Below, in pieces: positions 871 through 60,984 of a DNA stretch of 64,000 bases. Both the position numbers and the translations under genes were made by a program. The notes under the pieces were generated by a model that worked only from the letters and a program-made list of their open reading frames with translations, was not told where the DNA came from and searched no databases. How positions within the stretch are numbered: the first letter of the stretch is position 1; every line of letters begins with the position of its first letter. Origin of the DNA: Blasia pusilla (taxonomy: Eukaryota); assembly GCA_050084515.1 (NCBI GenBank), contig CM114271.1:41106001-41170000 (forward strand), given 5' to 3'.

Positions 871-1289
871 CTATCGGAGGAACTGATGTATCCGGTGCCG
901 CTCTCCTCCTGTCAACTTAGGGCCCATATCTGGCTCCCAAGTCTCCATCGTGACTACGGTAGGACTCTCTGGTGCGGGTATCGGTGGTTGATATGGTACA
1001 ACCCCGTCTCGAACAACAATACTGGTTGCTCTCCTACAGCCAACTGCAAACTCTGATCTCCTCCACGTGTAGTACCCTGAATCACGCTCGATGCTGTGGC
1101 TATCATCTCCTAGCGTACCTGCAAAACATCCCAAGAAGTCCAAGGGTGTCTCTTCCGATCTCCCATGGTGTGTAGATCTCCTCGGGTCTCGCCCCCAACC
1201 ACTACCTCTACCGTCTTTGTAGGCATGGGGCTCACCAACGCAACCGCTGTGATCTGTCGCGATCTCATATGGCGCTGCTCAACCACTCC

Positions 1290-2240
1290 TAAGCTGAGGA
1301 TCCATGTCAAGCAGTTCAGGTCCATCGCCTGACCCAAGACATGGCGTCATGATGCCTCTGACACTGACGGTACTGCCGTCACTCTTATGGGAAATCCCAT
1401 CGCTCGCTCTCTCTTGTCGGCATTGGGCTCCACCAACCACTGAACCTAGTCATCCCCAACCAAGCCAAGACCGGCCTCCTTGTATGCATAGGAAGCGGGA
1501 AAACTCACAAACGTGGGCAAGGTTGCCCGCGGCCTGCCTACCTTGTTGACCATAGTCAACGGTGGTCGATCATCGTGCCTCACTGCCTGTGATCGACAAT
1601 CAGGATCTAGAATGGAATCCACTAACAAATGGGAGGGGCACTCCACTCTCACATACGCCATTGGTAACACCGCATGGGGCACCAAGTTGGTTCACCATAG
1701 ACACGGGCGATGGGCTCTAGAACCTACACTCGCCGCATCCAAGAACACTGCTCGGCCAACCCAGGCACGCACCTGATGAGCACTCGTCACCACCCGTGAC
1801 CTCAAGTCTCCTAAGATTAGCACATTCTCCAGAATGTAAGATGGAGAACGAGACTGGTGCTCCTGCAACTGCCGTAAGACCCTCAACATCTCCCAAAACA
1901 ACCTGGACCGAGTGTCAGCTAGCCCATTGCCTCGTCCAACACTCGATTGGCCCTGACATGGTCAACCGGAGATGACCAAATCAATGGTCCTTACCCGCTC
2001 AAAGTCCTACATCACCAACAATAAAATATCCCTCGGTAGGGAACTCTAGTATCCCTGTACCGCAGACGCAAACAATAAGTTGGGAAAACGTAGGCGTAAC
2101 TGCGCCACATATTGTAGAGAGACGCACCTAGCAACATCATCACTCTCCACATACAGGTACTGCTGCACTCGCACTCCTGCGTGCAAAACAAAAACTAACC
2201 CGGTACTAATCCATCCAAAGAGATCTAACACTTGAATACC
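1290..2240 (-). pseudogene. C5 cytosine DNA methyltransferase domain (DNMT3/DRM-like) inside pol, between protease and RT
   Basis: Motifs occur in canonical order: I IQVLDLFGWISTG; II YLYVESD; IV DLVISG*PCQGQS (Pro-Cys at 1956-1961, read by hand); GLADTRSRLFWE; VI YILENV; VIII DAASVGSRAHRPCLW; IX RERAMGFP; X LGQAMDLNCL. Confidence 0.9.
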
Positions 2241-2650
2241 CTCCTCCGGGATACACCACACAATGGGTGTGGTGTCCAAGGATGTCATCATAGAACTCCC
2301 TGTTCCTCAGACTTGTCACGCTCCGGTGCAAATGCCTCGCTCCACGTGGTCTGCACGTGCTCATCTGCCAATCATCGAAGCTCCTCAATTGAGCCCCACA
2401 ACGGAAGCTCTCCTCCACGGAATGATGCGGCTACCATAACACTCCTCTCCATAGAAATATCAGGAACGGGAGTATCCTTTGCATGGACCTCAATCAAATC
2501 CCTAGGCCAAGTGATGGCACTGCTAAATGATGCTAAGGTCGCCACCTCTCTTGGTCGTTGCTCGATCACTGTACCTGTGAATCGAATGGGTAATGAGCTA
2601 AGGCGCCCATCACCTCGCTGCCAGCATGGTCTGTAGGATGTTGAATCCTC

Positions 2651-10563: not shown

Positions 10564-11995
10564 CTAACGTATCTGCTTCACTTGCGTTTGCTTGAAGTCT
10601 TGCAACAACTCTTGCGCATGTTCCAAATCCGCCTCCGCAATCCAAGTTGCCTCCTTCATATTGTAGCCCTTCCATTTAACCAAGTATTTGTACTTGTTGG
10701 CCCGACGCCTCGAACGTAAGATGGTCTCCATCTCAAACTCTGGCTCTTCATTTATGATCACCGAGTGCGGTCTCACCACATGTCTCCGCTCAAAACGTCC
10801 ATTATCTTGAAGATATTTCTTCAACAATGACACATGAAAGGTCGGGTGAATCTTGAACTCGTTCGACAGCCCCAATGTATACACATCCTCAAACGGGTTT
10901 GCCACAATCACATACGGTCCAACATACTTGGCAGACAACTTCGCAGAAAACTCTTTCGGAAAAGTGTGATTCTTCACACTCAACCACACTTGCTCTCCAA
11001 CTTGGAATTGTACTTGGCGCCGACTCTTGTTAGCATGCTTAACGTACCTCATTTGAACCTTTGCAAGACTTCGCCTTGCTCGCTCTTCCCGTTCTCGCAT
11101 TTCTACCAACAAACCTTCTGCCGTCGCTTGTCGTGTTCGTGCTAATGTAGTACCCTTCGGAAGGGCTAGGTCAAGAGGCCCTTCTGGCTTTCGTCCATTT
11201 TCCAGGAGAAAGGGAGATTCTCCAATTGCAGAATGCTTGGTCGAGTTGTAGCAGTACTCCGCCATGCTCAACCACTTGACCCAATCTTGTTGATCAGCAC
11301 TGACATAATTCCTTAAGCATTGATTCACGATTGAGTTTACCTTCTCAGTCTGTCCATCCGTCTGTGGGTGGAAAGTCGTATTGAAACTCAACTTGGTCTT
11401 AAACCTCCTGAACAAGTGCTTCCAAAAAGCATTGGTAAACTTTGGATCCCGATCTGAAACAATGCTCCTCGGAAAACCATGAGCACGCCACCAGTTATCC
11501 AGAAATAGTTGCGACGTCGTATAAGCCGTTGTGGAATCCACAGTCGACACGAACCTGGCCAACTTGCTAAACCGATCAACAATCACAAGTACAACGTTGT
11601 ATCCCTAGATTCCGGAAGACTCGTGATGAAATCCATACTCACACTTTGCAAGGGTACTTCTGAGATCGGCAAGGGATGCAGCAAGCCTTGTTTCTTATCA
11701 TAAGAAACTTTATTCGATTGGCAGGTCACACAGGTCTTCACATATTGAGCAACATCCTCTTTCATGTTGGGCCAAAAAACCGCTTCGACAGAACAGCCAA
11801 CCTAGATTTCTCTCCTTTATGTCCTGCCAAGGGTCCGTCGTGACACTCCGCTAACACTTTGGTTCGCATCCTGCCTTGCCCCACATAGATCCTACTCTGC
11901 TTGAACCTTAGTAAACCGTGCCTCAAACTTATGTAGGCCACCTTCTCACCCTGCTTCAACTTCCTCAGGTACTCCCATGTGTGAGCGTCCTTCAT
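10564..11995 (-). pseudogene. Integrase with GPY/F motif and C-terminal chromodomain (frameshifted)
   Basis: HDGPLAGH..CVTC zinc finger, SMDFITSLP, IVSDRDPKF, HPQTDGQTE, KYVGPY, HPTFHVSLLK; chromodomain FEMETILRSRR..KYLVKWKGY..EATW. Confidence 0.95.
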
Positions 11996-12048
11996 ATATC
12001 CTTAACGAATCCTTCTTTCTAGGTCTGTTTCTTTAGGGAACATTGCTC

Positions 12049-14999: not shown

Positions 15000-15226
15000 C
15001 TCCTCTATACATCACGGTTCGGCATTGGTTCCTCTCTTGATTCACGTCGCTTGATTCGGCGCTCCTTGGGTGTTTCTCCCTCGATCACCATTTCCAAGCC
15101 AACTCACTCAGATCTCCTCCTCGTTTCTTGCGTCTCTCCTCGAGCGTATGAGTCTAGCCGCTACCTTGAGTTTTCCCAAGAGTCCGGTTGATCCCACGAC
15201 CCCAACTTCTCGCTCACCAAGGATTA

Positions 15227-15238
15227 GCTCTGATACCA
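15227..15238 (-). promoter_or_regulatory. Primer binding site for initiator tRNA-Met
   Basis: Minus strand TGGTATCAGAGC, 2 nt inside the 5' LTR. Confidence 0.95.
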
Positions 15239-15240
15239 CT

Positions 15241-16246: not shown

Positions 16247-17423
16247 GCCATAGTCGTTATGTGTTGGTGATGGTCGAGCAATTCTTGAAGTGAATAGAGT
16301 TGGTTGCATTGTTTGACAAAGCGAGTGAGGGAGTAGCGTATGCCTTCCTAGATCGGGTGCTAAGTCATTACGGCGCACTAGCTGAGGTGTTGACAGACAA
16401 GGGTACAGAGTTTTGCCGGGAGTTTCAGGCCTTGTGTGATGAGGCGTTGATCGACCACAACACCACTTTGCGAGATCATCTTGAGGCGGATGGACTAGCG
16501 GAGAGGGTTGTGCAAACGGTGAAGAGAGGATTGTGCAAGTATGGCTTGCAGAAAGGTTACCTAGGATATTGGGACCTCCATTTTCCATGGTTGGCGATGG
16601 GATATAGATTCAGCAAGCATGCATCTTTAGCGTAGTTTTCACCGTACTTGCTACTCTATGGCCGAGAGCCAGATTTACGTACGGCCATTCGTCGAGATGT
16701 TGGTGAGGTGTTGAACCTTGATGACCCTGATGTATGGATGCGAGCATGTTCTCAGAGGGCTGAGTTGTTTCGGAGAGTGATGCCCATGGCATTTGAGAAC
16801 TTGGCAATTACGTAGCATCGAGATACATTGAGTTATGCGATTCTTCGAGGAGGTGGTTATCGACCTACAATCCGGAGGTTCCACCAGGGAGACTATGTCT
16901 ACTTGCAGAAAATGACATCCATGACATTTGATGTGATTGCAGGGCGCACTATATTGAGAGTGCGTGAGGTTTTGCCATCTTGTGTTCTTTTGTTGGAGGG
17001 ATGCGATGGTATGGTGTGGAAGGACCATGTGCGTAATTGTGCGCCATGTCACCTTCCTAATATGGATGATATCGTAGATCCGAGCTTAGCAGTAGTTACT
17101 ACATGCTTGCAATACATGTTGTGAGGTTCTGCCCCTCGTGGAGCCACTATGCTAGTTTATGATGGATGTTCGAAAGAATCGCATATGGCATGTTTGACGC
17201 CCACTTGTTACTAGGGTTCCTCAGGGACGATGGATGTTTACCAAATATACATAGAGTACGTAGTTCTAGATTTCGACTTGTCTCTATGACATGGATGACA
17301 AGAAGGTGACAAACGATGGGGTCACATGAGCACTCGAATTTTTTGCTCTTAGCGTCCGAGAGATGTATGTCATGGTAGGTAGGGATAGATGGTTATCTGG
17401 AGTTAGAGAGACCTAACCACCAG

Positions 17424-21720: not shown

Positions 21721-23535
21721 AATGGTTTCCACTAAAATGTCCCTAAAGCCATTAGTAAATCCAATGCTGAAGCTATCGTTTTTAACTTGTTTTTTCGTAC
21801 TTCACTTGTATTACCCTGATGGTTACGGAGCTGCTCACATGTATTACCCGACTTTTGTAGTTCCCTTCCGAGCGGATGTGTGGTAATTAGGATAATCCAT
21901 GGCCCGAGGGGCAATACAATGATAGAAATTGCAATTCACCTTGCTGGCAATGCATTCCTATTCTCGGTTGCTCACATGTATTACCCCTTTGTTCACATGT
22001 ATTACCCCAGATGTGTGGTAATCGGCCCGGTAATGGGATTCAGTTAATTGAGATTCAATGGAGTGTAAGCTCCGTGTAAAGTCTGCCATCCGCATTAATC
22101 TCCTCCGCAGCCCCATTCATCGTCAATCACATTAATAGTGAAGCACGGACTTCTTTTAAAAATATTCTCCAGTAATGTTGAATTTTTTGAAATCGTCTCC
22201 CGTACTGTCGAAGGAGCAGGAACGTTGAACCCTAGTGAGCGTTCTCCACTAACTTCGAAAGTGGATTTCTCTCTCCCGTGATTACAGAATGGTTTCCAAT
22301 TGAAATAACTAGAAGCCATTCCGTATTTCCAAGCTTGATGCGACTTATGTATTTGGCCTACCCGTTAGTCATCCTCAGCGGCTCTATATGGAGATCAGAT
22401 TCTACGGTTGGTAGTTTGTCCTCATGTTCTCCATATGCAAAGAATATCCTACGAAATTTAGGGAAGTTTAGTCAGATTGGTGTTTCCTAACGGCAACCCC
22501 TTCCGCACATAGTAGGTTGAAGGGACAATTCATGCGGCTTGTGGATAATGAATACCTTCCATACCCTAAGAAATCTCAACTAGGAATATTGAAAAAACAA
22601 CCAAGTGATATCCATGGGAGTGTAGCTTATCAAAAAAAATTCTCTCCCGCATGACTATGGTGGCCTTAAAGGATAAAGGTCATCTTATCCCACCGCAAAT
22701 GTTTGAATGGTTTCCAAAATGAAAACGTGGAAGCCATTCGGTACAATAAATACCTTTCATTTCTAGAAACTTTCATAAAATGTTAGGAAAATAACTACCA
22801 TATGGAAAGCCCATGGAAGTGTACATCATCCAAAATTTTCTTTTTCCCATAGTGAAAGCGATTGTCGAGTGGGAACCCCCATCCACTGTAAAGGGGATGA
22901 GGAGGTTCATAGGTGCGGTGCCGTTCCATGCACTTATGTGAAAAACTTTTCGGGAATTGTGAGACCTCTCACGGATTGGACAGCAAAGTTTGCCAACACG
23001 ACTTGGATCCAGGAAGTTAATATGACTCTAATGTCCTTGAAGGGTGGAAGTTATAATGCTCCCACTAAAATCATTGAATGGCGGATATATATGAATATAC
23101 ATTCATGGCACTATTGAACTTCTCAACTTTTTCCAGTAAGATGGAAAGTGGCCCTCCCTACTCCTCTGATCTCGAAATGGTTTCCATCTGATAACGCGAA
23201 AGCCATTCTGCACATACAAGCTTGAAGCGACAATATATGTGAATTGTCACTTCTATGCTCCAAACAGATCTATTCCACTACAATGGTTGGAAGATCATTC
23301 TGCTCCTACCACAAATGATTGATTGGTTTCCAATATGTGAAATAGGAAGGCATTATGCACAAAGAATACCTCCCATTTCTAGAATCTTCAACTAAAGCAC
23401 TACCTTTAGGAAAACCCACCACAACTGATTGAATACTGAATGTCTAGTTCGTGTACATGAGTCATCATTTTTTTTGTAAACGCTCCGTATACAATTTGAT
23501 TGAATGGTTTCCGATAGAATACAATGGAAGCCATT
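21721..23535. repeat. Dispersed 33-bp imperfect inverted-repeat motif AATGGTTTCC-N15-AAGCCATT
   Basis: Copies start at 21721, 22288, 22706, 23176 (32 bp), 23322 and 23503, with a weaker copy at 30859. Confidence 0.7.
22852..23021 (+). mobile_element. Isolated ~170-bp fragment of the chromovirus RT/RNase H connection
   Basis: Highly similar to the reverse complement of ~12503-12672 (KAIVEWEPPSTVKGMRRFIGAV...). Confidence 0.9.
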
Positions 23536-23835: not shown

Positions 23836-26800
23836 CTACTGTCCTCTACCTCTTGGTGTATTCTGAGACATAAAAAAAGGAGCATGAGCTTCCTTGTCTA
23901 GTTGGGAATGTATGCCCAACTTTTTTCGTTTACACTTTGCTTTGGGAAAGCGTGGCAGGATTGTGGTAGACTCATATTCTTGAGTGGGTGTTTCATTCAC
24001 CTGCCCTGTAGACCGTCGTCTACCTCGTGACCAACGTTCTATGTTTGATTGTACTCGTTTAATGGAATTGTTGTTGGAGAAACCGTCCACATAAGTGGAG
24101 AAGGGATTCGAGTGCGGTGTTAATCCATTAAGAGCTACTGCTCTTGCTTTTTGAATCCTCCCATTCAAATCTCCAAGTCCTTTTGCCATCAAAGTTAACA
24201 ACCGATTGTTGTTCATGCATGATAGTCGTATATCTGAGAACATCTTATCAATTTCTGCAATGATTTTTGTATGTTGTAGAGAATCTCCCATTGATGTGTT
24301 ATGATGAACAACCAGGTCTAAATATTCAAAGGACATTCCAAAAAGTCAGACAGTGAATTGGTATTCCCATGACGAAAATCTGCATTTAGGGAAAAGCGTT
24401 TGTTTAACATGTTATAGGACGTAGGGGAATTGAAATGCACCTTCTTCGGCATCGACCTGAGAATAGACAATATCAATTGTAGCGCTTACGTCATGGTCAT
24501 TAGATTTTTGCTGAATTAGGTTTAGATGAGCCATCCCGCCATGATGTGTCCCTAATTTGGTTCCAAGAATCGTTACCAGATCTGCTTCACTATACTCTTC
24601 CTTCAATAAGGCTGCAATTTGATTTACATACATAAAGGAACAAAAATTAGGGAAAATCCTTGGCACATCATCTACAATGCCTTGCACATGACGATCACAC
24701 AATTAATCATTTCAAGAGAAGTGTAGTGTGGGCTTATAATTTGCTTGCATATGTTCCCCTTTAGAGACCAGGGACAATCACAATGCCCCCACTCAATATC
24801 GTAATTGTATACTTCATACCACTCTTTGTCCAATGTTTGGCTTCAAACTCTCGCCATGCTAACCTGCCCCCTAATTTCTGTCATCTCCACATCATCACGT
24901 GGGATTGCTCTTCCTTTCAAGACAACGTTATTGATGTATTTCTCATGAGTCGCATTTGTCACAAACCCCCTTCTTTTCAAAAATTGTATGTGGAAATACC
25001 ATGCCTCAATATCATCACTCAATTTCCAAACAAGGTAGTCCCCTCTCCTCTGTTATAATGTCCTCTTATCATCATTCAACACAACCTTCATGATTCCATG
25101 ATAGTTTTCAATAGTTGCGTTAGTATCATGGTTTGCATGTGGATAATCCCTCGCCGCCTTTACCCACTTATCTGAATGATCAACAATGCCACCAATATAC
25201 TATGTTAGATGGTATTCCCGTTTAATTAAGTAGGACATAAACATACTACATATCAACATCAAATGGTGTACTTACCGAGTTTCGGTTCCCAATATACTTG
25301 AATGTAGTTGATGAATTCCCGTTCGTGTTCAAATTCCGTGTAGAATAGATGCAGTTCTTCCCTGGCGTCATTCAAGATGACGCGTTAGTTGTATGTCCCA
25401 CAATGATTGACATACATGATCTCACCTAGCCTCCGAGACATTGATGCTCTTGTGGCAGGGCAATGCACCTTCTTCTTCAGTTGCTTCAACCAATCATGCC
25501 GGACATGCCAAAGACACAATATTATATGTGCCATGGGGAAAGTTGCTATGTGGGAGTGGTTTCCGTGATAGATTGTTAGCAATCGGGAAATATAGGGTGA
25601 AAGAAAAATCTATTTCCATCTACTAGCCTGGTCATGGTGGCAACCTACGAGATATCATCCCTTTAGTACCAATGTACGAAGGACCCACAAGAAGGCGTTA
25701 GTAACTAAAATGGTAGAATGCTCACTGTAGTGCATTTTGTTCCGCCATAGCATCGTCCTCAATGACTGCATTTGGAGCCCAATCATGTTGTATGCTTCTG
25801 CACTTTGTCAGTAGTGCCTTTAACCACCTGCCCAAATAAACTTCCTTTGCACTGGATGTCAGGATCCACGCAACAGGAATGCCTGAATGGTGGTCGTCAA
25901 ACACAAGCAAAGTATATAGAGGAAATTGGAAACACACAGAAAAAATCAAACATGAACCTAGTTAGTACCTGTATTGAACAAGGCAAAATGTAGGTTTTGT
26001 ACAATCAATGTTGTGCATTGAAAAGTGGCTCGTGAGGGTTTAACATTGAAAAAAGAGCAATATTGTACCTTATTTCAGTTGGTGCCGAATGTGCTATCCA
26101 TATTGAGAGCACTACATTGTCCATATTATAAGAGAGCGTGTAATTTCCATTGGCTTTGGAAACCCAAGATAAATGGATGTGTGTCATCCAAATATGGCTC
26201 ATATATGAACACTTTCTCAGGATAGTACTCTACAAATAAACTTAAAGACTCGTTCTCATCTTTTGCAAACTGATAAGTCTCCTTACACAAGGCCTTTTGT
26301 ATATTCTTGATATCATGCATTTGCATGAAGTGTTCTTGTGACAAAGTCTTCTAAAAGTTTGGATCTACCAACGAGCGCATCTTCAATATCTTTGAATGCT
26401 TGGATTTGATTTGGTGAGGTTTAACACTTAAGCGCAACCTTTCTTTAACATACAACTTCAGGTCATCTGAAATTCAAGGTCCATACATCCTTGGTGTGTC
26501 AAGTGAGTCTTGGTAAGCTCTCCCATGACAAGACTTGTTACCTTTATCCACATGTGCCCTGTATTTGTAGGTAATCTTAGCCATATGTGAAGGTGTGGTA
26601 ATTTCCACTACTTAAAAACGCCATTGACATCCACATTTACAACTATCACCTCGACTAATGGCTTGTCCACGTGGCCTACTCACTGGTCCAGTTTTGGGAA
26701 TTTCATACTTGCAACATATGAAAAATTTTGGTGGCAATCAGTTCACGAAAACCATGTTCAGCAGGGGCTTACAATGTTTTATTGTAGCAAATGCAAAAAT

Positions 26801-37200: not shown

Positions 37201-37832
37201 TCTTTTCATGTCATTATAATTTCTCCTAAAACCAAAATAAGATTTCAACGAACATAAATGGGTTGGTGAATTATCACCAAAAAATATTTAGCTGGAAATT
37301 CATCTCTAGCATCGTTGATGTTAGTTTTTGCATGTTAAATTTCAAAATTGTGACATGCTTCCAAAGACTTCATGTCCCTCCATTTGTTGGAATTGCTACG
37401 AGTATCCAATTTTTTTCAAAAAATTTTCCACTATGATGAATATTCCTCCGAGAAAGTTTTCATATCGCAATCTATGTTCGAATATATTTTCTCAAAATTG
37501 CGCAACCCATTCTCCCCCATTTTTAGAACTTCATCGTGTCCCAAAACTACCTTTCTTCATTTCCATCTAACCTAGTGCATTGTATGGGGTCCAATCACTA
37601 GTGCTTATATGAATTTTAAAAAATTATTCACATACATCTTCAAATTGTATTCTTGTGTCGACCTTGATTATTTCACATATTTTATGAAGGTGAGTATAGG
37701 GAATTCAGTTCGGAAAAATTTCAACTAGGTACGAAATAAAATTTGGAACCCAATTTTATTACAATCAAGAAAAAGTTTTCCTATGTGTATTAAAATTACT
37801 TTGCCTCGTTACATTTCACTTTGGTGCCACTT
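37201..37832 (+). repeat. 632-bp direct duplication, copy 1
   Basis: Near-identical to 41467-42098. Confidence 0.95.
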
Positions 37833-39584
37833 AAGTTACATTTTACTACGGGTCGTTGCCTCATAGGCTCACGGTACCCGCCGTGCTCTCTGGGCACACC
37901 GGCCCGCTCTCGTGGTACTGGTGCTCGCTGTGGCACCTGTGGGGTCACCGTTGCTCGTGGACCCGTCGACTCTTGAGAAAATCCAGCGGTCACTACCTGC
38001 TCCTCACTCATGTTGAGCTCAATACGCTCAGAAAACTCAAAGATCACCTTTAATGTGGGCTTCGCTGTGTGAATCAGGACCGCATCTCGGACTCTCCTTC
38101 GTAGTTCTAGGTCCAGAACCCCGTACCAATACTGGACTGACTACGCCTCAGTCACTCTATACGTAGCAATGATTAGCCTCCTCATGTGTGTGAATGCCTC
38201 TCTTAGACTCTCACCCGATTGTCGCTGAAAATCCTGTAGACTCTTCAGCTTGTCGGTGCGTATGCCTTGGTACCTCTTCCCCAACTGTCGGAAGAACTCC
38301 ATTGTGGGGTTGAAGCTCGGTGGCCCTCTACCACCAAAGGTCTCTGCCACATCGCCTGTCTCACTGCCCTCCTCTCCATCTAGTCGTCGGGCTGATGGTG
38401 TGGGTCTCTATCCTCTCACAATCCCATAATATGCCTCGCGACCACTAGTGGACACATACCCTGGAGCCCAATACATCCTCCAGGCATCGATCTCTACTGA
38501 ATATAGTGATCGGAACTCCATGTAGTCATCCATTGGAGGACCCTCCAAGTGTTGGAACAACCCCTTCCTTGCCATGAAAGGGTTGAACCGTGTCGGGGTC
38601 CGTATCTCCTAGAAGTCGCACCACGCTTCGAACTCCTGGATAAAATCATCTAAGTCCATGGTGCCCACTGCACCCGAGAAACGACGCATGCCCCGATAGC
38701 CCATGTCGTCCATCTCCTGCCAAGTACTACTGTCTCTGTCTGCGATCTCGTCACTAGACCCAGTGTCTAGTGATGACGATCCAGCCACGGATGGATGTCG
38801 AGGTAGCTCCTCACTGGTAACCCCTCGGTATCTCACTCCACTCCATGTCACACCACTACCACTGCTAGCACTACCCCGTTCTTCCGAACCCTGGAAGAAC
38901 GCCGTGATGACAAACCCTGTCTCACTCGCTCAAGCACTCAGACTCACCAAGAGTCTCCCACACTCCTCACTAGCTCACCTATGCTAACATCAATCCCGTG
39001 ATGACATACCCGGCCTCACGCACACTCAACACTCGGGCTCACCATGAGCCTCCCAACTTACTTACTAACCTAGCAACACTCTCGGGTCATACATGCGACC
39101 CCTACGCGGCAACCGCCGTATATCCACCAACATGCTACACATGAAAAGAATCTACACTCGTCACCATCGCTGCACCCACCTAGCACCAACTACTACTCGA
39201 TACCCAGCACTCTCAATCACACACGACAAGTGGGGAAAAGGGACTCAAATGGGTAACCTGGTCACTCCCGCCAATCAACTGCTTCATCAACACTCACTCC
39301 TCCATGTGGCTCGGAAACCTCCGCAGCACAACCATCTCCCCTCACAACAAGTCGATCCTCCCGTCACCGGGTGCAGACCACTTGTCGACATCAACACACT
39401 AACTCTCCATCGTCAACCCATCGGTGCAGAGGGTACATCTTGACCCCAACCATGTAACTCTACTCAACCATGTCGTAGCTCTTACCACATATGTCGCTCA
39501 ACCTGATAGCCCGCCTATCACGTTCATCCTATGCACCACGTCCAAAGTTCCAAACACGTCGGCCTAGACTTGGTAAGCACGCTT

Positions 39585-40150
39585 GCCACGTCCATTCTTC
39601 AGACCCGCTCTCCCAACTTCACAGGCTCGCGGCTTTGTACTACGGCTACTCCTTCCTCGTGTGGGCGCGCCTGTACCTCCGCCGGCGGCGAAGAAGACAC
39701 ATATCTACAGTCGACTACACGAGGGACACATCTTCATCCCCCTGGCCATAGAGATGTATGGGGCTATGGGGGAGAGGTTCGACTTCGTTCTCACGGATCG
39801 CGCCCATCATCTCCACTCGAGAAATGGGTTATCCTTAGCTAGCTCGCGATTCAGACAGGCAGCTGGTCTCCATAGCGTTGCAGCGTGCCCAGGCTAATGG
39901 GATTTTGCGGCGGGCTCAGGCTGTGGGAGACGCCGGCGCTAGAGGCCCACTTAGTAGTAGTCATAGCTCTCTTGTTGTTGCTGATATTGTCTCTGCTGTT
40001 GGTGAGTTTCGTCGTTAAGGGGGGGAATGCCCCCTTCTTCCTTTGCTGGTCGTGTTGTGGCCTTCAGGTTTTGACTCTTTGAGTCCCCCTCTTTTGTACT
40101 TCCGATGGGTTTTCCATCACTCATTTTTATCGAAGTGCATCTTTGTTTTT
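39585..40150 (+). mobile_element. 3' fragment of a CRE-like non-LTR retrotransposon (restriction-like endonuclease C-terminus) within the leader of element C
   Basis: AAKKTHIY..FIPLAIEMYGAMG followed, after a frameshift, by QLVSIALQRAQANGIL. These match the KxxKY..FxPxxxExxG and SxxLQRxxA motifs of RLE elements. Confidence 0.7.
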
Positions 40151-41037
40151 CTTAACAGCACGGCTCCCTGTGGAGCTCCCTCTGAACCCACATACTTTGG
40201 AGCCATAATGGCTCTACATAGTGCCCTATGCAGGCTTGGACCTTGCCACTCCCGTATTCACTCTATCTCCCCCGCTTCTCGAGACGCAGCCCTTCTGCTC
40301 CCGACTCCCCTCACATTCACTCCTGCTCCCACACTCCCTTAGGCATGCGGTCCTATGCAGGACCTTCCTACTGCCTTATTCCTCTCGCACGCCGCCCTAT
40401 GCGGCTTTGTCCATACTCGCGCATACGGCTCCCTATGGCGCAGGGCCCCCCTCCTTAAATGCGCGAGGGCCCTATAGGCCACTCCCGCTCAATCCACCTT
40501 CTCCATGCTGCCTGACGTGGCCTTATATGTGCACGTAGTCCCTATGGAGGGACTCTCCCCTGTCTGACTACCTTTACTGGCGGCTGGCCGTCCTATGCGG
40601 CTAGCCCTGCCTCTATTCGCGTTACTCCCTAGCTTCCTCCCGACGCACCCGCTTCGATTGCGACTGTACTACTGATCGCGCACATATAATCTAAACCTAA
40701 CTCAAGACTAGCGGCTACAACCTAGCTCTCCTGGAGGCTACCATATTCTTGCCCTAACCTTCTCTCTTCCCATTTTCCAACCCTCACGCTCACCCATCCA
40801 TGACACTCTCGTGACCACCCGTGGTCACAACCTGCGTTGCACTCTATTCCTATCCCCCGTCAACCCACACCAAGGAGATCTAAGAAAAATGGACAGCGCT
40901 TCCGCGCACAACCTTCCGAACAGAAAACAACACACAAAACGTCACACACACGTCTCCAGGGGCTCCTCAACCGAGGCAACTCGCTTGCCTACTTGCAAAC
41001 AACGAATTCCCACAACCCCCTGACATCTTTCTCATAT

Positions 41038-41466
41038 AAAAATAAAGAGTAGTAAAAACGGCACACTTGGCCTAAAACTCCACTCCTCAATATACATCGA
41101 CATATCGAGCCTCGTCCACCCTGTGCTATCAAGGAATCCGGAGGCTAGCACCCTAGTCCTATCTCACACACATATAAGAGAGGTGCTCCAACGCCCAACA
41201 TGAGAAAGATGGCTTAGGAAAGCCACCTTCCTCTCTTATATAAGGTTGGGAAGAGCCAAAAGGCTCTTCCCCTAAAAATAACCCTCCCCTTGGTAACCTA
41301 CGCGCACAGGTTACCAGGGGCGGGTGATCTGGTCAACAAGTCACCCGGTTGTGAAAGACCTCAACATGAAAGTTCCTGACACAATGGACCTATCCTCAAC
41401 CTAGTCCCCTGGCTCTTACGCCCTATCCACGATAGATCTCAGCCTATCGGCTACTCAGATGTGACA
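41038..41466 (-). repeat. 5' terminal repeat A (subfamily 2) of element C
   Basis: Near-identical to 56554-57034 apart from small deletions, and contains a TATATAAG box. Confidence 0.9.
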
Positions 41467-42098
41467 TCTTTCATGTCATTATAATTTCTCTTAAAACCAA
41501 AATAAGATTTCAATGAACATAAATGGGTTGGTGAATTATCACCAAAAAATATTTAGCTGGAAATTCATCTCTAGCATCGTTGATGTTAGTTTTTTGCATG
41601 TTAAATTTCAAAATTGTGACATGCGTCCAAAGATTTCATGTCCCTCCATTTGTTGGAATTGCTACAAGTATCCAATTTTTTTCAAAAAATTTTCCACTAT
41701 GATGAATATTCCTCCGAGAAAGTTTTCATATCGCAATCTTTGTTCGAAAATATTTTCTCAAAATTGCGCAACCCATTCTCCCCCATTTTTAGAACTTCAT
41801 CGTGTCCCAAAACTACCTTTCTTCATTTTCATCTAACCTAGTGCATTGTATGGGGTCCAATCACTAGTGCTTATATGAATTTTAAAAAATTATTCACATA
41901 CATCTTCAAATTGTATTCTTGTGTCGACCTTGATTATTTCACATATTTTATGAAGGTGAGTATAGGGAATTCAGTTCGGAAAAATTTCAACTAGGTACGA
42001 AATAAAATTTGGAACCCAATTTTATTTCAATCAAGAAAAAGTTTTCCTATGTGTATTAAAATTACTTTGCCTTGTTACATTTCACTTTGGTGCCACTT
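41467..42098 (+). repeat. 632-bp direct duplication, copy 2
   Basis: Near-identical to 37201-37832 and abuts the TG terminus of element C. Confidence 0.95.
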
Positions 42099-44574: not shown

Positions 44575-47500
44575 CTTGGTATATCGTTGGTAAAAGTTCC
44601 TAATCCCATGAATATGCAAACTCAATTCACATTTGTAGGGCGCAAACACGTGAAATAGCCTCTACATTTGTCTCATAAACACTAAGGCCAATTGGGTATA
44701 TCGCATGACCGAAGTACTCAATCTAGTCATGGTAGAACTTGAACTTGCTTGGATGTAGCTTCAGACCATGTAAATGCAATCGTCGAAACATGTCCTCAAG
44801 ATGTCACTCATACTACTCAATCGTGGCGGTGAAGACTACAATGTCATCAATGTAACACCTAGCAAAATCTGTATTAATCCATAAACTGGACAAGATCCTA
44901 TTCATGATCCTTCGAAACTCCACTAGGCATTTTTCAACCAAAAATTAAGATTCGTCATTGTATAAAAAATCCTTTCTGACGATTGATGCCCCAGAATGTT
45001 ATTTTGTGCTTGTCCTCGACTCTGATAAGAAATTGATGGTATCTCGCTCAAAGATCTTTTTATGCCCAATAGCATATATCAAAGATCTCCTCAAGAATGG
45101 GCATATCATACCTATAGGACTTTGTGTGCCAATTGATAGGTCGGCTGTCTCCACACATCCCCCTATTAGTCCAATTGCCATACATATCCTTCTTGGCGCG
45201 CATGATTATGAATATGGTAGATGCATACTCCCCCATACAACATCTCCCATAGTCTTGCCTCAATCAAGTATTGGCTTTTCCTTTGAATCAAGGCTCTCTC
45301 AATGTCACAATACTGGTAGGATCGTCAAAGATCACTGTGTTGTTAGAAAACTCCATGCATATCCTTAGACCTTTTAGTGTACCCAAATCATGCATACTAA
45401 ATGCAAAACAAATCCCATGACTACTAAGGAACCTATGTATCTGATGTTGATCTCCTCATATCAACTTAAGCCCAATGTTCCCACTCTCCGTTATGACTAT
45501 GGTAGGACTATTTAGCCTGGATTTCGGTTGCTATGATGCAACCCCATCAAAAATAGTAGAACTCAACTGATCTCTCTGTAGCCCACTTAGATATCTCATC
45601 TTGTGATGATTCTCGTTGTGCAAGACCATAAACCACACCAATTGCCATCTCTCGGCATACCTGCATCACATCTCGGTCCATGGACATCTCACTTAATCAC
45701 CTCTCATTTTGCAATCTCCTTAGGTCTCGCCCCTAGCCACTGAATGTCCCCTCTTAATAGAAATGAGGCTAACAAGTGCTATAGAGGTGATCTCTCACAA
45801 CCTCATTCAACGCAGTTAGCTACTTTTAGGTTCCAAATCCATATTAAGAAATTCAGGTCCATCGCTTGATCTACAATATGACGTTTGAACGCCTCTAATA
45901 TTAATGGTATTACCTTCACTCTTGTAGGGAATCCCATTGCATGCTCTCTCTTATTGGTGTTCGGCTTCACCAACTATTACACCTAGTCATCCCAAACCAA
46001 GTCTAGACCAATCTCCTTATATGCATAGGAAGTAGGAAAACTCACTAATTTGGAAAATATTGCCTAGGCCATGGCAATCCTATTCACCATAATCAACAAA
46101 GGTCAATCGTCGCGCCTCAGTACTTGGATTGATATCCAAGATCCAAAGTGGAATCCACCAACAAATGGCAGGGCCATTCCTCTTTTGCATATGCTCATCT
46201 TAGAACCTCGTGTGACATCAAGTTAGTCCATCAAAGATGCAATTGGTGTGCTCTTGATCCTACACGCATCCAAGAACAATGTTTGGTCGATCCATGCACG
46301 CACTTGATATACATTCATCACCATACATGACAAGAATTGCTCAAAATTGATATAATCTTTTAGAATAGAAGCTAGAGAAAGAGACTGGTGCTCGTGCAAA
46401 TGTTGCAAGATCCTCAACATCTCCCAAAATATCTAGGATCATCCAAACCACCAGCTCATCCAATACTCGCTCGCCATGCTATGGCCAACCTACAATGACC
46501 AAAATAATGGACAATGACCTAAGTCTTGAGCTCTCGACATGGAAATGTCCTTCGATACAAAAACTTTGATAACCGTGCAGACTTGACGCGGATAATAAGT
46601 CAGGAAAATAAAGTCATACGTGTACTACATGTTGGAGTAAGACATGCCTTCCAAGCTCATCATGCTCCACATACAAATATTGATGTTCGCACACTCATGC
46701 TTGTAACACAGTAGCCAACCCAATAATCAGCCATTCAAAGAGATCCAACACTCTTATATCCTCTAGAATGCACCACAAAATCAGTGTTGTATCTCAGGGG
46801 AAGAACACAACACTCCCTGCTACCTCAGGCACCTCTAACCTATGTCTATGCAAAGGTCTCACTCCACACCATCTACACATGCTCATCGATTAATCGACAA
46901 AGCTCCTCACTTGAGCCCGGTAAAGATACCTCTCCTCCAAAAAATGATTCGGCTACAATAACACTCCTCTTGAGAGGATATTGGTCAAAATTTTGTCCCT
47001 TGTATGGATATAAACCTCAATCAAATCTCCAAGCCAATTAACGGTGTTACTGAATGTAGCTAGAGTTGCCACCCTTATATCTCTTGGTTGTTGCGCGATC
47101 AATCCACTTGTGAATTGCACTGGCATCGAGCTCAGTTACCCATCAATTCTCTACCCTCCTAATCTATAGGAATCAAACTCCTCCAAAAAATCAAGGGTTA
47201 ATTCCATCAGATACAACAATGCTCCACCAACCAAGATGTCATAGGACTCGCCATTGGTCACTATTGCCTTGGCTCGCACCACAGACTCATGAGTTGGATG
47301 TTGTGGTTGAATCCTTACCACGACCTCATGGTGGGTAGTAAATTATACCATACGGGCTCCACCTAGGAAACATATGTATCCTAAATGGGCAACGCTTAAC
47401 ATCAGCCCGCGTCAACCCGAAGCCTATAAATGTTGCCTTTCCCAAAATCAAGGATGTTGTGCTTAAACCCAACAAGACACAATATAGACAATAGACTTTA

Positions 47501-56416: not shown

Positions 56417-57185
56417 TGTCGTGCGCATACATATCGCTACACAACATACATCGCTAGTCACATCTACACCACACAACGCCGATCTTCCCCACACACGGGT
56501 CGATCCACACATGTACAAAAATCAACTCATACATATACATGGAGATCACACAACAAAAATAAAGAGTAGTAAAAATGGCACACCCGGCCTAAAACTCCAC
56601 TCCTCAATCTACATCGACATATCGAGCCTCGTCCACCCTGTGCTATCAAGGCATCCGGACGCTATCACTCTAGTCCTATCTCACACACATACAAGAGAGG
56701 TGCTCCAATAGCCCAACATGAGAAAGATGGCTTAGGAAAGCCACCTTCCTCTCTTATATAGGGTTGGGAAGAGCCAAAAGGCTCTTCCCCTAAAAATAGC
56801 CCTCCCCTTGGTAACCTACGCGCACAGGTTACCAGGGGCGGGTGACCTGGTCAACAAGTCACCCGGCTGTGAAAGACCTCAACATGAAAGTTGACAGAAA
56901 TGACGTTCTTGACACAATGGACCTATCCTCAACCTCGTCCGACACCGTGGGACAAAGTTACACTCAAGATAGTCCGCTAGCTCCTATGCCCTATCCACGA
57001 TAGATCTCGGCCTATCGGCTACTCAGATGTGACAGCTGTCGTGCGCATACATGTCGCTACACAACATACATCGCTGGTCACATCTACACCACATAACACC
57101 GATCTTCCCCACATACGGGTCGATCCACACATGTACAAAAATTAACTCATGCATATACATGGAGATCACACAATCGCCCCCCTAG
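56417..57185 (-). repeat. Split direct repeats: PPT-like 57174-57185, B1 57037-57173, gc, A2 56554-57034, B2 56417-56553
   Basis: B1 and B2 are 137-bp near-identical direct repeats. A2 matches the 5' end of element C. The B1|A2 junction reads GACAGCTGTC. Confidence 0.9.
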
Positions 57186-57250: not shown

Positions 57251-57410
57251 CTATACACCTCTCGGACACATCCATCGTCCTGTGGGAACCACATCAAGAG
57301 GGGGGATCAAACATGACATATGCCACCCTTGAGAACAACCATCACATACCAATATGGTGGCTGCACCCCTCGCAGATCCGCACAACATACACCTCAATCC
57401 TGCAGGTACC
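57251..57410 (-). pseudogene. PHD finger at the integrase C-terminus
   Basis: CMLCGSARGAATILVCDGCSQGWHMSCLIPPLDVVPTGRWMCPR fits the C4HC3 PHD pattern; the last Cys is lost or frameshifted. Confidence 0.92.
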
Positions 57411-57920
57411 ACTGCCAAGCTCGGATCCACCGTCCCATCTACGTTCAAAAGATGACATGGTGCACAATTGCGCACATGATCCTTCCAAACCATACCATCC
57501 CGTCCCTCCAACATGAGGACTCCGGTCGGTAATACCTCGCGCACACGTAGGATCGTCCGCCCTGAGTGACATATAGCGTCGTGGGTGCCGCCTGCTATAA
57601 ATACACGTAATCTCCAAGATGAAACCTCATAATCCCTGGACGATAACCTCCTCCACGAATGGTCGCGTACCTCAATGTATCTCTATGATGGGCAATAGCT
57701 AAGTTCTCAAGGCCATAGGCATTACTCTACGAAAAACCTCCGCCCTCTGAGAACATGCTTGTACCCACATATCTGGATCATCAAGATCTAACACCTCCGC
57801 CATGTCATGTCGAATTGCTGCTGGTAAATCAGGCTCTCTCCCAAAGAGCAAAAAGTATGGTGAAAATGATGCCAAGGATGCCTGCCGACTAAAACGATAA
57901 CCCATAGCCAACCATGGCAA

Positions 57921-58562
57921 CTATAGGTCCCACTCCCTCAACTCTCCCCGCTGCAAGCCATACTTGCGCAATCCTCTCTTCACCGTCTGTACCACTCTCT
58001 CCGCCAACCCATCCGCCTTAGGATGATCTCTGGACGTGGTGCAGTGATCTATCAGCGCCTGATCATACAAGGCCTGAAACTCTCCCCTGAACTCGATACC
58101 CTGGTCAGTCAACACCTTCGTCGGTGCACCAAAGTGACTAAGCACACGATCTAGAAACGTATAAGTTGTTCCCTTGCTCGCCTTTTCTGGTAGTGCCACC
58201 AACTCTATCCACTTGGAGAAATGCTCCACCATGACCAACACGTACATATGATGACGCCCCATCAATGGCAAAGGTCCCGCAAAGTCTAAACTCCACCGAT
58301 AACTTAAACCCATAATCGGAAAAGGATGTAATTGCGGAGTGGGAGCATTGAAGGATGCTCGCACTCTGTCACATACCATACATCTGGCCACAAATTGCTG
58401 TATCCCAGTATGCATGCCGCGCCACCAATACTGAACATGGATTAAGCTGTAACTACGCTTTACTCCAAAATGTCCCAACTCCTCATGGGCATGTCGCACT
58501 ACACGTGCTTGCTCGGAAGGATGAGGTACCACTCGTATCCTACCATCTTCCCATACCCGCAA
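57921..58562 (-). pseudogene. DDE (rve) integrase core of element D
   Basis: HEELGH..CMVC zinc finger, WSLDFAGPLP, VLTDQGIEF, HPKADGLAERVVQTVK. Confidence 0.95.
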
Positions 58563-60984
58563 AATGTGAGTCCCCTCCCACCTGAACCTCCTGGCTCTCT
58601 GAAGGATCCGATCCCGCTACCTAGCACTCAATGTACTCGCTATGACGCGAGTGCGCAAGAACTCCACAACCTCCACGTCGTCATGGATATCACGACCACC
58701 TGTCGCCTCCTCACTAACCTCCGGATCGAAAGACTCATCATCCAACCCCACCACTGGAGTCATCACCTGTGGTTGACCTGCCATAGTCAACCAACAAAGA
58801 TAGGCAGATACATGCCAATCGGGCACCATCTCCTCATCACTCTCTCCGTGCCATTGAGCTCCTCTGCCGTCTCTCTGACTCGAACATGGGTTATGACTAA
58901 ACCCATCCGCATCTTGGTTCAGCCAACCTGGCCTATGAAACACCTCAAACTCATACTCCTGTAGTAATAGAGCCCACCTGGCAAGCTTTCCCGTAAGCTT
59001 GTCGGACTCCATCAACCACCTCAACGGCTGATGATCAATGATAAGTGTGAAAGGGTTTCCGAATAAATAGCATCTGAAATGTGCCATGGCCACACTCCAG
59101 CCAACCACTCTCCCTTGTAGGAGATGTACTTCGCCTCTGCAATGTTGTTCGATCGGCTTGCGTAAGCCACAACGAACTCCCTCTCCTCGTCATCCCTCTG
59201 AGTAAGCAGTGCTCCTAGACCCAACATGCTCCAATCTGTATGTAAATGGAATGGGCGACCCCTGACCGGTCTCTGTAAAATTGGCGAGGACGTCAACCTG
59301 TCCTTGAGCTCCTGAAATGCTCGCTCATGATCATCTCCCCACAACCAAACCTGATCAAGTCTCGTCAACAAGGTCAAAGACTTTGCGATCGCACTAAAAC
59401 TCTTGACATACCGTCGATAGAAGTTCGCCAGTCCAAGAAATGCTCAGACTCGACTCACATCTGTAGGGTGTGGAATCTACGCAATAGCCTCTACCTTCGT
59501 CTGCTGAACGCCTAACCTACTCGGGTATATGGTGTGTCCCAAATACTCAATTTTCTCCTGAAAGAATCTGCACTTGCCTGGATGTAACTTCAGTCCATGT
59601 AACTGCAATCTCCGAAATACCTCCTCCACGTGTATCATGCTCCTCAACCGTGGAACTGAAGATAAGAATATCATCTATGTAACATTGTACAAACTCCAAG
59701 CCAGCTAGAATTCTATCCATCACTCTCTAAAACTCTGCATGCGCGTTCTTCAACCCAAATGGTAAGAACCGCCATTGATACAAGCAATTTCTCCCGAACC
59801 AATCTATCCCCTAGAATGCTGTCTTCTCCCTGTCCTCCAACCTAATAGGAAGGTGATGATAGCCAACACGGAGATCTAAAGTACTGAAGATCTTCGCATG
59901 CCCTACTGCATCAAAGATCTCCTCAGGAGTAGGCATGGCGTACCGATGTGACCTCGTCTATCAGTTGATAGGACGGTAATCTCCACACATCCGCCTATCT
60001 GTCTAATTGCCATACATATCCTTCTTCGCCGGCATGACTGTGGCAGATGCATACTCCCCATGTGATAACTCCACAAGTCCTGCCTCCAACAAGTCCTGAC
60101 TCTTGCTCTGAATCAAGGCTCGCTCCATATCCGAATACATGTAGGGACGACCAAAGATCGGCGTATCACTAGCCAACTCAATCCGTATCCTGGGACCCTT
60201 CAGCGTACCCAAGTCTCTCATACTGAAGGAAAAACAACTGACATGCCCTCTCAAAAACCTATGAGCTCGCCGTCGCTCTCCTCCTATCAACTTGAGACCT
60301 ATCACAGGCTCCCAAGTCTCCATCGCGACCTCATTCTGAGAGGACCCAACCTCCGGCTTTGGTTGCTATATAGCAACCCTAGCCACCTCCACAAGAACCA
60401 CTCCACTTTAACCTCCTACACCATGCTCCGCATCTGAAAAATGAACATGTTCTACTCTAGCCGCCTTCGCACTCTGCTCAAACGACGTCCCAGGAAGTCC
60501 ATGGGTGCCTATCTCTCCTCGTCTCGCCCCCAGCCAATGCCTGTATAGACCCTGTACGCAATGGTCCAACTCGTGGACATGACGACATAGATGACACTCG
60601 CATCCATCTTTGCTCAGCCATACCTAGGCTGACTATCCATGTGAGACAGTTGAGGTCCATCGCCTGTCCCAACACCTGTCTCCAGGATGCCTCAGTCATC
60701 CCTGGCACCGCCGTAGTATCGGTAGCGAACCCCATGGCGCGCTCGCGCTCATCTACTGTAGGCTCCTCCAATGCGCCGGTCACCTCCACGTGGTGGAAGG
60801 CAAGGCAAGGACAAGGAAGAAACGTAAAATTGCGTAAGATGGAGGCAAGTAAGAGGAATGAGAAAGAAGGGGAAGGTGGGGCCTACATGGATAAGTCCTT
60901 CCAAAGGACGGACGTATGCCCGCGAACACGGACTTTGTCCATATGCAACCTTGTAGATTAAGGAAACCTATATATCATGGGGCA

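What the first reader, a model, noticed from the sequence alone, without database searches (positions are those of the whole stretch)
57251..57410. PHD finger on the integrase paired with an MTase: a mobile chromatin reader-writer set
Seen: a C4HC3 PHD finger ends pol in D, with a decayed equivalent in B (~17100-17245), at the position where the neighbouring chromovirus has a chromodomain. Known: PHD fingers read histone H3 tails, and animal DNMT3 couples a PHD-like ADD domain to its MTase. Inference: the element may target integration, and possibly methylation, by H3K4 state.
Basis: partly seen in the sequence, partly recalled or inferred. Interest (0 to 1): 0.7.

Follow-up and report, generated by a model that had tools for sequence, protein, structure and literature searches.

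The report
Histone-reading finger on retrotransposon integrase
A very abundant plant jumping gene carries both a histone-reading zinc finger on its integrase and its own DNA methyltransferase, but makes them as separate products, so the finger most likely steers where new copies land rather than switching the enzyme on.

Summary
The PHD finger is real (PF00628, E 4e-10), but copy D is dead: 7 of 8 zinc ligands, two frameshifts from its integrase, and only the last ~55 residues of the MTase. The pairing holds for the family, not for D. In this genome 20 of 20 PHD-anchored copies carry DNMT3-like sequence upstream, and 19 of 20 MTase-anchored copies a PHD downstream. In public proteins 105 of 109 do. 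Both domains evolved under purifying selection. Relatives occur in liverworts, Sphagnum, Coleochaete and chlorophyte algae. The finger is of the unmethylated-H3K4 class (no methyl-lysine Trp) but lacks the acidic wall. The ADD analogy fails: the MTase ends gag-PR and the PHD ends RT-RH-IN, separated by a conserved in-frame TAG-CAACCA, a TMV-type readthrough context (49 of 52 junctions). Each domain is occasionally lost alone. Closest known: KnitGypsy-Dnmt3, whose DIRS-like split repeats this family shares. PHD-bearing retrotransposons and reader-plus-writer LTR elements are published. I found no paper on this pair, the moved MTase or the leaky stop. The scan noted the same pairing twice on other genomes. 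Histone binding and targeting remain inferred.

The parts
57251..57391 (-). PHD finger at the end of pol in copy D; 7 of 8 zinc ligands; unmethylated-H3K4 class by sequence
   Evidence: PF00628 E 4e-10; coordinates; best solved relatives KDM5-PHD1, PHF12, CHD4, BHC80, AIRE, BAZ2, UHRF1, ATXR5 (query from a sister copy)
57413..57700 (-). integrase C-terminal region with SH3-like barrel; two frameshifts in D
   Evidence: tblastn; beta strands at residues 338-388 of the model of a sister copy
57702..58616 (-). integrase zinc-binding and catalytic domains of D
   Evidence: PF17921 E 7e-15, PF00665 E 8e-14
59024..60359 (-). reverse transcriptase and RNase H of D (broken)
60360..60368 (-). in-frame TAG followed by CAACCA between the MTase frame and RT: UAG-CARYYA readthrough context
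   Evidence: motif definition PMC5382211
60613..60786 (-). C-terminal remnant of the DNMT3-like MTase in D; the element is cut off 5' of it
   Evidence: tblastn 70% to residues 276-328 of A's MTase; alignment to sister copies ends at 60786
56417..57173 (-). 3' end of D: split direct repeats B1 (57037-57173), A2 (56555-57034), B2 (56417-56553), ending in CA
17092..17254 (+). decayed PHD of element B, 3 of 8 ligands
1278..2261 (-). DNMT3-like C5 MTase of element A, one frame with six stops
   Evidence: PF00145 E 5.5e-10; best solved relative DNMT3A, E 1e-9
45821..46778 (-). MTase of element C, which is 3'-truncated (no integrase or PHD in view)
10588..10737 (-). chromodomain of the unrelated chromovirus (8875-16246) nested in B's integrase; comparison point only
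   Evidence: PF00385 E 2.6e-13; LTR pair 93%

Best explanation
D is a dead, 5'-truncated copy of a high-copy Ty3/Gypsy-type family with the layout gag-PR-DNMT3-[TAG CAACCA]-RT-RH-IN-SH3-PHD and split direct repeats. Shown: the layout, the co-occurrence, purifying selection on PHD and MTase, the conserved stop context, sense transcription of family relatives. Inferred: most ribosomes stop at the TAG and make gag-PR-MTase, so the MTase is packed into the particle in capsid-like amounts; a few read through and make RT-RH-IN-PHD. After proteolysis the PHD stays on the integrase C-terminus and works like a chromovirus chromodomain: it tethers the intasome to nucleosomes, most likely through the free N-terminus of histone H3 with K4 unmethylated, which biases insertion away from H3K4me3 promoters. 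The MTase acts separately, probably on the element's own cDNA or new insertion. Reader and writer travel in one particle but are not one allosteric module.
For: Position after SH3 at the integrase tail in 119 of 120 listed homologues (the search was anchored on this region). Net dN/dS between the two subfamilies: PHD 0.09 (bootstrap on 6+6 copies 0.02-0.20), MTase 0.13, IN 0.03, RT 0.04. In 119 homologous fingers: first six ligands invariant, Asp after the third Cys in 114, Gly in 112 and Trp in none at the methyl-lysine cage position, Pro 113 / Gly 92 / Trp 109 in the loop that in solved fingers holds H3 Ala1 (role of these positions partly recalled, cage and acidic wall from PMC5415848). The 60 listed PDB matches are led by unmethylated-H3 readers. 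Predicted complex of a sister copy's PHD with host H3 1-30: score 0.46, best of 3 controls 0.02, runs agree in at least 94% of contacts, partner pLDDT 57; weak support only: the mark was reached by 51 of 78 solved and 2 of 108 mismatched pairs, at 0.60 or under by 5 of 78 solved and all 4 mismatches that passed, and solved PHD-H3 complexes may be recalled by the model. Stop context: TAG at 49 and CARYYA at 51 of 52 distinct junctions in both subfamilies (three rows shifted by an indel were read by eye); TAG CAG TTA and TAG CAA CTA in two metagenome relatives. A PHD-bearing Gypsy of Chlamydomonas inserts between genes 2.6 times more often than chance (10.1101/2022.06.16.496473).
Against: No binding or insertion-site data. 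The acidic wall is Ala in this family and acidic (at that or the preceding position) in 1 of 12 fingers of its clade against 79 of 107 others; mean net charge +1.8 against -3.7. Neutralising that patch cut H3 binding 17-fold in BAZ2A, so binding here may be weak or changed. 3' flanks hit another fetched locus in 11 of 24 copies against 3 of 24 histone-gene flanks: small, biased library and confounded by selection. Readthrough is not universal: ten metagenome loci have CAA CCC instead of CARYYA (eight after TAG, two after TAA) and a group of five has no stop there; 3 of 52 own junctions have a sense codon. The isolated KnitGypsy-Dnmt3 MTase showed no activity in yeast, which the authors call inconclusive.
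Confidence: 0.58

Rival explanations
1. In this clade the finger no longer reads H3K4. Having lost its acidic patch and become basic, it helps the integrase grip nucleosomal DNA, another chromatin protein or itself.
For: Acidic wall lost and net charge positive across the MTase-before-RT clade; loss of the Tudor-like barrel and tail that follow the finger in algal relatives; the complex score is only weak.
Against: The Asp after the third Cys is kept in 47 of 47 own copies read, and the hydrophobic strand and Pro-x-Gly-x-Trp loop are kept. PHD fingers that bind H3 in extended or bent form lack the acidic wall too.
Confidence: 0.22
2. One reading: the PHD stands in for the ADD domain of animal DNMT3 and targets or activates the element's MTase by H3K4 state, directly or as a complex of two cleaved products.
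For: Tight co-occurrence: 105 of 109 MTase-anchored proteins that run past SH3 have a PHD; 17 of 17 and 19 of 21 metagenome loci. In algal forms the MTase sits just before the integrase in one frame, so an uncut MTase-IN-PHD product is possible. Same K4me0 class as ADD (ADD recalled).
Against: In this family RT, RNase H, integrase and a conserved stop lie between them. The MTase moved without the PHD. PHD without MTase in two clusters (P0106, P0107); MTase without PHD in 4 of 109. Co-occurrence is expected from shared descent in one lineage. No GATA-like finger, and His is kept.
Confidence: 0.13
3. The finger is a passenger with no function for the element.
For: It is broken in D and B and in several copies.
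Against: Net dN/dS 0.09 over a synonymous distance near 0.9; ligands nearly invariant from chlorophytes to land plants. Breaks are copy-specific decay.
Confidence: 0.03

Closest known systems
KnitGypsy-Dnmt3 / 'Gypsy-DNMT3' of streptophytes (de Mendoza et al. 2018, PMC5890265; passages, sections 9 and 10, and a term search of 3 supplementary files seen; Fig. 4c not visible)
   Same: Intronless DNMT3-like domain in a Gypsy polyprotein, purifying selection, DIRS-like repeat layout with Gypsy domains.
   Different: The text and supplements held do not contain 'PHD', though the unseen figure may draw it. Reported for Klebsormidium; here a land-plant genome with thousands of candidate hits, plus liverwort, Sphagnum, Coleochaete, Closterium and chlorophyte relatives. 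MTase relocation and the leaky stop are not described there. No K. nitens protein was retrieved, so no direct sequence comparison.
Gypsy-7a_cRei and REM1 of Chlamydomonas reinhardtii (10.1101/2022.06.16.496473 and PMC9940879, passages seen; REM1 paper not held, known only from citations)
   Same: Gypsy polyprotein with a PHD finger, proposed to limit harmful insertions; intergenic bias measured.
   Different: No MTase is listed for Gypsy-7a, and its legend lists PHD before INT; here the PHD is C-terminal to the integrase.
Chromoviruses (PMC6317226 passages; chromodomain targeting as cited in PMC6673714 and 10.1101/2021.11.30.470311)
   Same: A histone reader after the SH3 barrel at the integrase tail.
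   Different: Different reader and different lineage: the window's chromovirus integrase is about 30% identical; ordinary LTRs; no MTase.
EpiLTRs (bioRxiv 10.64898/2026.05.21.726589; parts 1-2 of 5 and passages read)
   Same: An LTR retrotransposon carrying a chromatin reader plus DNA methyltransferase.
   Different: Chromodomain, DAM and a DNMT sister to DNMT4, in Cymbomonas and Euglena; the authors call it distinct from Gypsy-DNMT3. No PHD.
ADD domain of animal DNMT3 (recalled; PMC12344493 passage confirms only that animal DNMT3s have PWWP and ADD)
   Same: Zinc finger of the unmethylated-H3K4 class in the same genetic unit as a DNMT3-type catalytic domain.
   Different: Canonical C4HC3 PHD without a GATA-like finger, far from the MTase and in a separately translated part; functional analogy at best.

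Membership tests
PHD finger (PF00628) | Score above the curated cut-off | tested here: met
   40 bits against 24
PHD finger (PF00628) | All eight C4HC3 ligands | tested here: met
   Met for the family (each ligand in 41-47 of 44-47 copies read; 117-119 of 119 homologues); copy D itself has 7 of 8
H3K4me3-reading PHD fingers | Conserved Trp of the aromatic cage two residues before the His | tested here: not met
   Gly in 112 of 119, Trp in none; feature from PMC5415848, exact position recalled
H3K4me0-reading PHD fingers (KDM5-PHD1/BAZ2 type) | Asp after the third Cys and Pro-x-Gly-x-Trp loop | tested here: met
   Asp 47 of 47 own copies, 114 of 119 homologues; loop kept; roles recalled
H3K4me0-reading PHD fingers (KDM5-PHD1/BAZ2 type) | Acidic wall residue | tested here: not met
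   Ala in this family, aligned to the KDM5B Asp; 1 of 12 in its clade
H3K4me0-reading PHD fingers (KDM5-PHD1/BAZ2 type) | Binding to the unmodified H3 tail | tested here: inconclusive
   Predicted score 0.46 against best control 0.02, weak pass, may be recalled from solved complexes
KnitGypsy-Dnmt3 / Gypsy-DNMT3 | Intronless, unpermuted DNMT3-like domain in a Gypsy polyprotein | tested here: met
   One 328-codon frame, best PDB match DNMT3A; PC in 32 of 34 and EN in 33 of 34 copies
KnitGypsy-Dnmt3 / Gypsy-DNMT3 | DIRS-like repeat layout with Gypsy domains | tested here: met
   A1...B1 A2 B2 in own copies (L048, L056) and metagenome locus L105; TG...CA ends and 4-bp duplications in L048 and element A. 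The paper's figure was not visible, only its legend
KnitGypsy-Dnmt3 / Gypsy-DNMT3 | Purifying selection on the MTase | tested here: met
   Net dN/dS 0.13, 6 D-type against 12 A-type copies
KnitGypsy-Dnmt3 / Gypsy-DNMT3 | Common descent with the K. nitens element | not tested
   No protein named as K. nitens appeared or 69
KnitGypsy-Dnmt3 / Gypsy-DNMT3 | Methyltransferase activity | not testable with these tools
   Not shown for KnitGypsy either
Chromovirus | Chromodomain at the integrase tail | tested here: not met
   PHD then stop
DNMT3 ADD module | GATA-like plus PHD-like finger directly before the catalytic domain in one chain (recalled) | tested here: not met
   Single C4HC3 finger about 1,000 residues downstream, beyond an in-frame stop
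EpiLTR | Chromodomain plus DAM plus DNMT | tested here: not met
   Pol ends two residues after the PHD in this family; no DAM or chromodomain by Pfam in D's open frames
Type I (TMV-like) stop-codon readthrough | In-frame UAG followed by CARYYA | tested here: met
   49 of 52 TAG, 51 of 52 CARYYA; definition PMC5382211. Readthrough itself not measured

The most novel reading that the evidence does not exclude
An old green-lineage retrotransposon clade is a self-contained chromatin reader-writer that reached thousands of copies in a land plant: a leaky stop packs its de novo DNMT3 into the particle at capsid amounts, the cDNA arrives already methylated, and the integrase PHD delivers it to H3K4-unmethylated nucleosomes, so each jump seeds methylated chromatin without the host's small-RNA pathway. 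Moving the MTase from the Pol side (algae) to the Gag side (streptophytes) would have raised its dose sharply, at the same time as the finger lost its acidic patch and Tudor partner.
Probability: 0.2. Interest if true: 0.8.

Novelty: new variant of a known kind. Interest (0 to 1): 0.47.

Why it matters
What retrotransposon-borne DNA methyltransferases are for is open, and the one Gypsy enzyme tested in isolation was inactive in yeast. This family gives a tractable case: close relatives are annotated in Marchantia polymorpha, a model plant. It also means that many 'DNMT3' and 'PHD' gene models in bryophyte and algal annotations are transposon parts, and that a large repeat family with split terminal repeats may be missed by tools that look for two identical LTRs (inference).

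Tried and rejected
Reading D alone as reader plus writer: rejected, D lacks the catalytic part of the MTase. H3K4me3 reading: rejected on the missing cage Trp. A nested host PHD gene or chance motif: rejected, the finger follows the integrase in register in 119 of 120 homologues. Inferring target choice from flanks: 24 flanks, no clear target-site motif, repeat content 11 of 24 against 3 of 24, not decisive. Fold search of the IN-SH3-PHD model gave only integrases (foamy virus, Ty3, HIV, SIV) among the 39 rows shown, nothing on the finger. The run search listed no RNA holder in the index; raw reads were laid instead. The protease profile found nothing, so protease positions rest on tblastn and Pfam. 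Tree roots are weak (one chromovirus outgroup for IN; midpoint for the MTase), so the direction 'algal layout first' is suggested, not shown. Literature searches that did not turn up the PHD-DNMT3 pair, the relocation or the stop. The library lacks most subscription papers, the REM1 paper and figures; Repbase reports and the Craig 2021 thesis were not searchable; bioRxiv supplements are closed and may bear on the EpiLTR and chromatin-evolution comparisons.

Full report
The observation. The minus strand at 57251-57391 encodes a PHD finger (PF00628, 40 bits, E 4e-10). It follows the integrase (PF17921, PF00665) and an SH3-like barrel, the same slot that a chromodomain fills in the chromovirus at 8875-16246. 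The two integrases are only about 30% alike, so the slot is analogous, not a swap between close kin. Copy D is dead. Its last Cys position is Gly, two frameshifts separate the finger from the integrase frame, and D breaks off at about 60786, keeping only residues 276-328 of the MTase. The decayed finger in B is real (17092-17254, E 3.6e-7; 3 of 8 ligands). The full MTase in the window belongs to other copies, A (1278-2261) and C (45821-46778). It matches PF00145, and its best solved relative is DNMT3A (E 1e-9).

Does one element carry both? Yes. The own genome (390 Mb, 26 contigs) gave 13,195 first-look candidates for the SH3-PHD stretch and 15,451 for the MTase, of which 150 and 122 were scored; these are not copy numbers. 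I fetched 20 PHD-anchored copies (the ten best non-self hits and ten chosen for long open frames, of 150 listed): 20 of 20 have MTase sequence upstream, most of the domain in 18 and a remnant in two. Of the 20 best MTase-anchored copies, 19 have a PHD downstream; the miss ends inside the integrase. Nine more chosen for long frames all have it. The stretch before the window holds A's intact finger and B's protease and MTase, because A is inserted in B's RT. The layout is gag-PR-DNMT3-RT-RH-IN-SH3-PHD. Between the D-type and A-type subfamilies, net dN/dS is 0.09 for the PHD, 0.13 for the MTase (only 6 D-type copies passed the filter), 0.06 SH3, 0.03 IN, 0.04 RT and 0.09 RNase H (pairwise counts between natural copies). 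Three RNA runs labelled as the same species as a weak index holder (5% of words, so possibly a relative) gave 1,399-1,558 reads in 10-12 million, over all 30 bins, nearly all in the orientation that means sense RNA in the usual stranded library; most are 85-95% alike and about three quarters run on unlike, so they come from diverged relatives, not from D.

How wide is it? A search with the SH3-PHD region gave 121 long proteins (120 listed): 119 have the PHD and 88 the MTase in the same frame. Named ones are Pleodorina, Volvox, Tetrabaena, Chlamydomonas eustigma, Hariotina, Enallax and Coleochaete. The MTase's nearest named relatives are in Calypogeia (70%) and Marchantia (54-70%), then Sphagnum and Closterium, so the host is probably a bryophyte (inference). 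A search anchored on an algal-type MTase listed 120 of 230 hits, 33 shared with the first list: 105 of the 109 that run at least 65 residues past SH3 have a PHD. Among 80 metagenome loci, 19 of 21 with PHD, RT and 2 kb upstream have the MTase, and 17 of 17 with MTase and enough downstream sequence have the PHD. Exceptions exist both ways: P0106 and P0107 have the PHD and no MTase; four proteins have the MTase and no PHD, three of them one clade.

Two layouts. Most algal-type proteins read RT-RH-MTase-IN-SH3-PHD and continue into a Tudor-like barrel. This family and its streptophyte relatives put the MTase before RT, at the end of a gag-PR frame, and stop right after the PHD. The MTase-before-RT group is one clade in the integrase tree (support 1.0) and in the MTase tree (28 sequences, 0.984), in both cases near P0017; two stray proteins (P0215, P0243) have the same order elsewhere. 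One capture followed by relocation is the simplest reading; the roots are weak. The PHD did not move with the enzyme.

The stop between writer and reader. MTase and RT are in one frame in undamaged copies, with a TAG 136 codons before my RT anchor. It is followed by CAACCA. Of 53 rows (52 distinct sites) the script found TAG in register at 46 and CARYYA at 49 rows; three rows shifted by indels also show TAG plus CARYYA by eye, giving 49 and 51 of 52; three sites have a sense codon. The flanks differ between subfamilies while these nine bases do not. UAG-CARYYA is the type I readthrough signal of tobamoviruses (PMC5382211, passages), and in-frame stops between retroelement frames are known for Tca2, SIRE1 and MuLV, about 5% in MuLV (PMC2194720, passages). 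Distant relatives show TAG CAG TTA (L093) and TAG CAA CTA (L117); ten loci have the imperfect CAA CCC, and five have no stop. Readthrough is inferred, not measured; a separate start for RT is the alternative. If right, the MTase is made in Gag-like amounts and IN-PHD in Pol-like amounts.

What the finger reads. The best solved matches are PHF12, CHD4, KDM5/Lid PHD1, DPF, BHC80, ATXR5, BAZ2, AIRE and UHRF1, mostly readers of the unmodified H3 N-terminus (class recalled; BAZ2, KDM5-PHD1, UHRF1, DPF confirmed in PMC5415848, passages). The methyl-lysine cage Trp is never present in 119 homologues (Gly in 112); the Asp after the third Cys is kept in 114. Against a simple reading: the acidic wall, aligned through KDM5B, is Ala here; it or its neighbour is acidic in 1 of 12 fingers of this clade against 79 of 107 others, and the finger is net basic. 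A predicted complex of a sister copy's finger with the host's H3 residues 1-30 scored 0.46 against a best control of 0.02 (runs agree in at least 94% of contacts, partner pLDDT 57, alignment not used). The tool calls this weak support: 51 of 78 solved and 2 of 108 mismatched pairs reach the mark, only 5 of 78 solved and all 4 passing mismatches at 0.60 or under, and solved PHD-H3 complexes may be recalled. Flanks did not settle targeting (11 of 24 repeat-like against 3 of 24).

Comparison with what is known. KnitGypsy-Dnmt3 of Klebsormidium has an intronless DNMT3 in a Gypsy pol, Ka/Ks under 0.2 and DIRS-like repeats (PMC5890265, section 9). This family meets those tests: its ends are A1...B1 A2 B2, with TG...CA termini and 4-bp duplications in the two copies where both ends were seen. 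Common descent with the Klebsormidium element was not tested. That paper's text and three supplementary files do not mention a PHD; its figure was not visible. PHD fingers on retrotransposons are published and already proposed as targeting aids (PMC6673714; 10.1101/2021.11.30.470311; Gypsy-7a_cRei). Reader-plus-writer LTR elements are published as EpiLTRs, with a chromodomain and other enzymes. The plant LTR classification paper mentions no methyltransferase (PMC6317226). Ten searches did not find the PHD-DNMT3 pair, its spread through green algae and bryophytes, the relocation or the leaky stop, within a library that lacks figures and most subscription papers. Two earlier notes of this scan report the same pairing on other genomes; a word search for the stop and repeats found none.

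Verdict. The feature is real and the pairing is a family trait, not a property of copy D. It works most likely as an integrase tether to nucleosomes with unmethylated H3K4, beside an independently dosed MTase (0.58). A changed, non-H3K4 role in this clade is the main rival (0.22); ADD-like coupling is unlikely (0.13). New variant of a known kind; interest 0.47.

Noticed in passing
window 60360-60368 (-) and 985-993 (-): In-frame TAG CAACCA between MTase and RT, a TMV-type readthrough context, kept in both subfamilies while the flanks diverge; element A has a sense codon there.
   Followed up: yes
window 56417-57173, 41038-41475, 6772-7275: Split direct repeats (A1...B1 A2 B2). The B1-A2 joint reads CA, two bases, TG, like the junction of a circle. 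How an integrase element copies such ends is unexplained. 41038-41475 is a detached copy of the A part.
   Followed up: partly
proteins P0045, P0103, P0249, P0283 (algal-type relatives): After the PHD comes a conserved Tudor-like barrel (PF21743 above cut-off in P0283), then a domain with a lead-level likeness to amino-methyltransferases (Atlas 0.86-0.87; an SPPF or DPPW motif in 16 of 114 long tails). These may be PHD-Tudor counterparts of EpiLTRs.
   Followed up: partly
window 7275 and L071:2827: Element A is inserted in B's RT with a GTCT duplication, and a chromovirus (LTRs 93% alike) is inserted in B's integrase: a three-layer nest.
   Followed up: yes
window 37204-42098: Another element bounded by 630-nt direct repeats 98% alike, with no Pfam match in its open frames of 72 residues or more; it carries the detached A repeat of family D next to its right repeat.
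   Followed up: no
window 25725-25961 (-): MULE transposase fragment, below the Pfam cut-off.
   Followed up: no
window 22852-23021: Inverted 171-nt copy, 94% alike, of chromovirus RT-RNase H sequence at 12502-12672.
   Followed up: no
proteins P0140, P0219: Proteins of this retrotransposon lineage carry bacterial labels in public records, probably mis-binned eukaryotic contigs.
   Followed up: no
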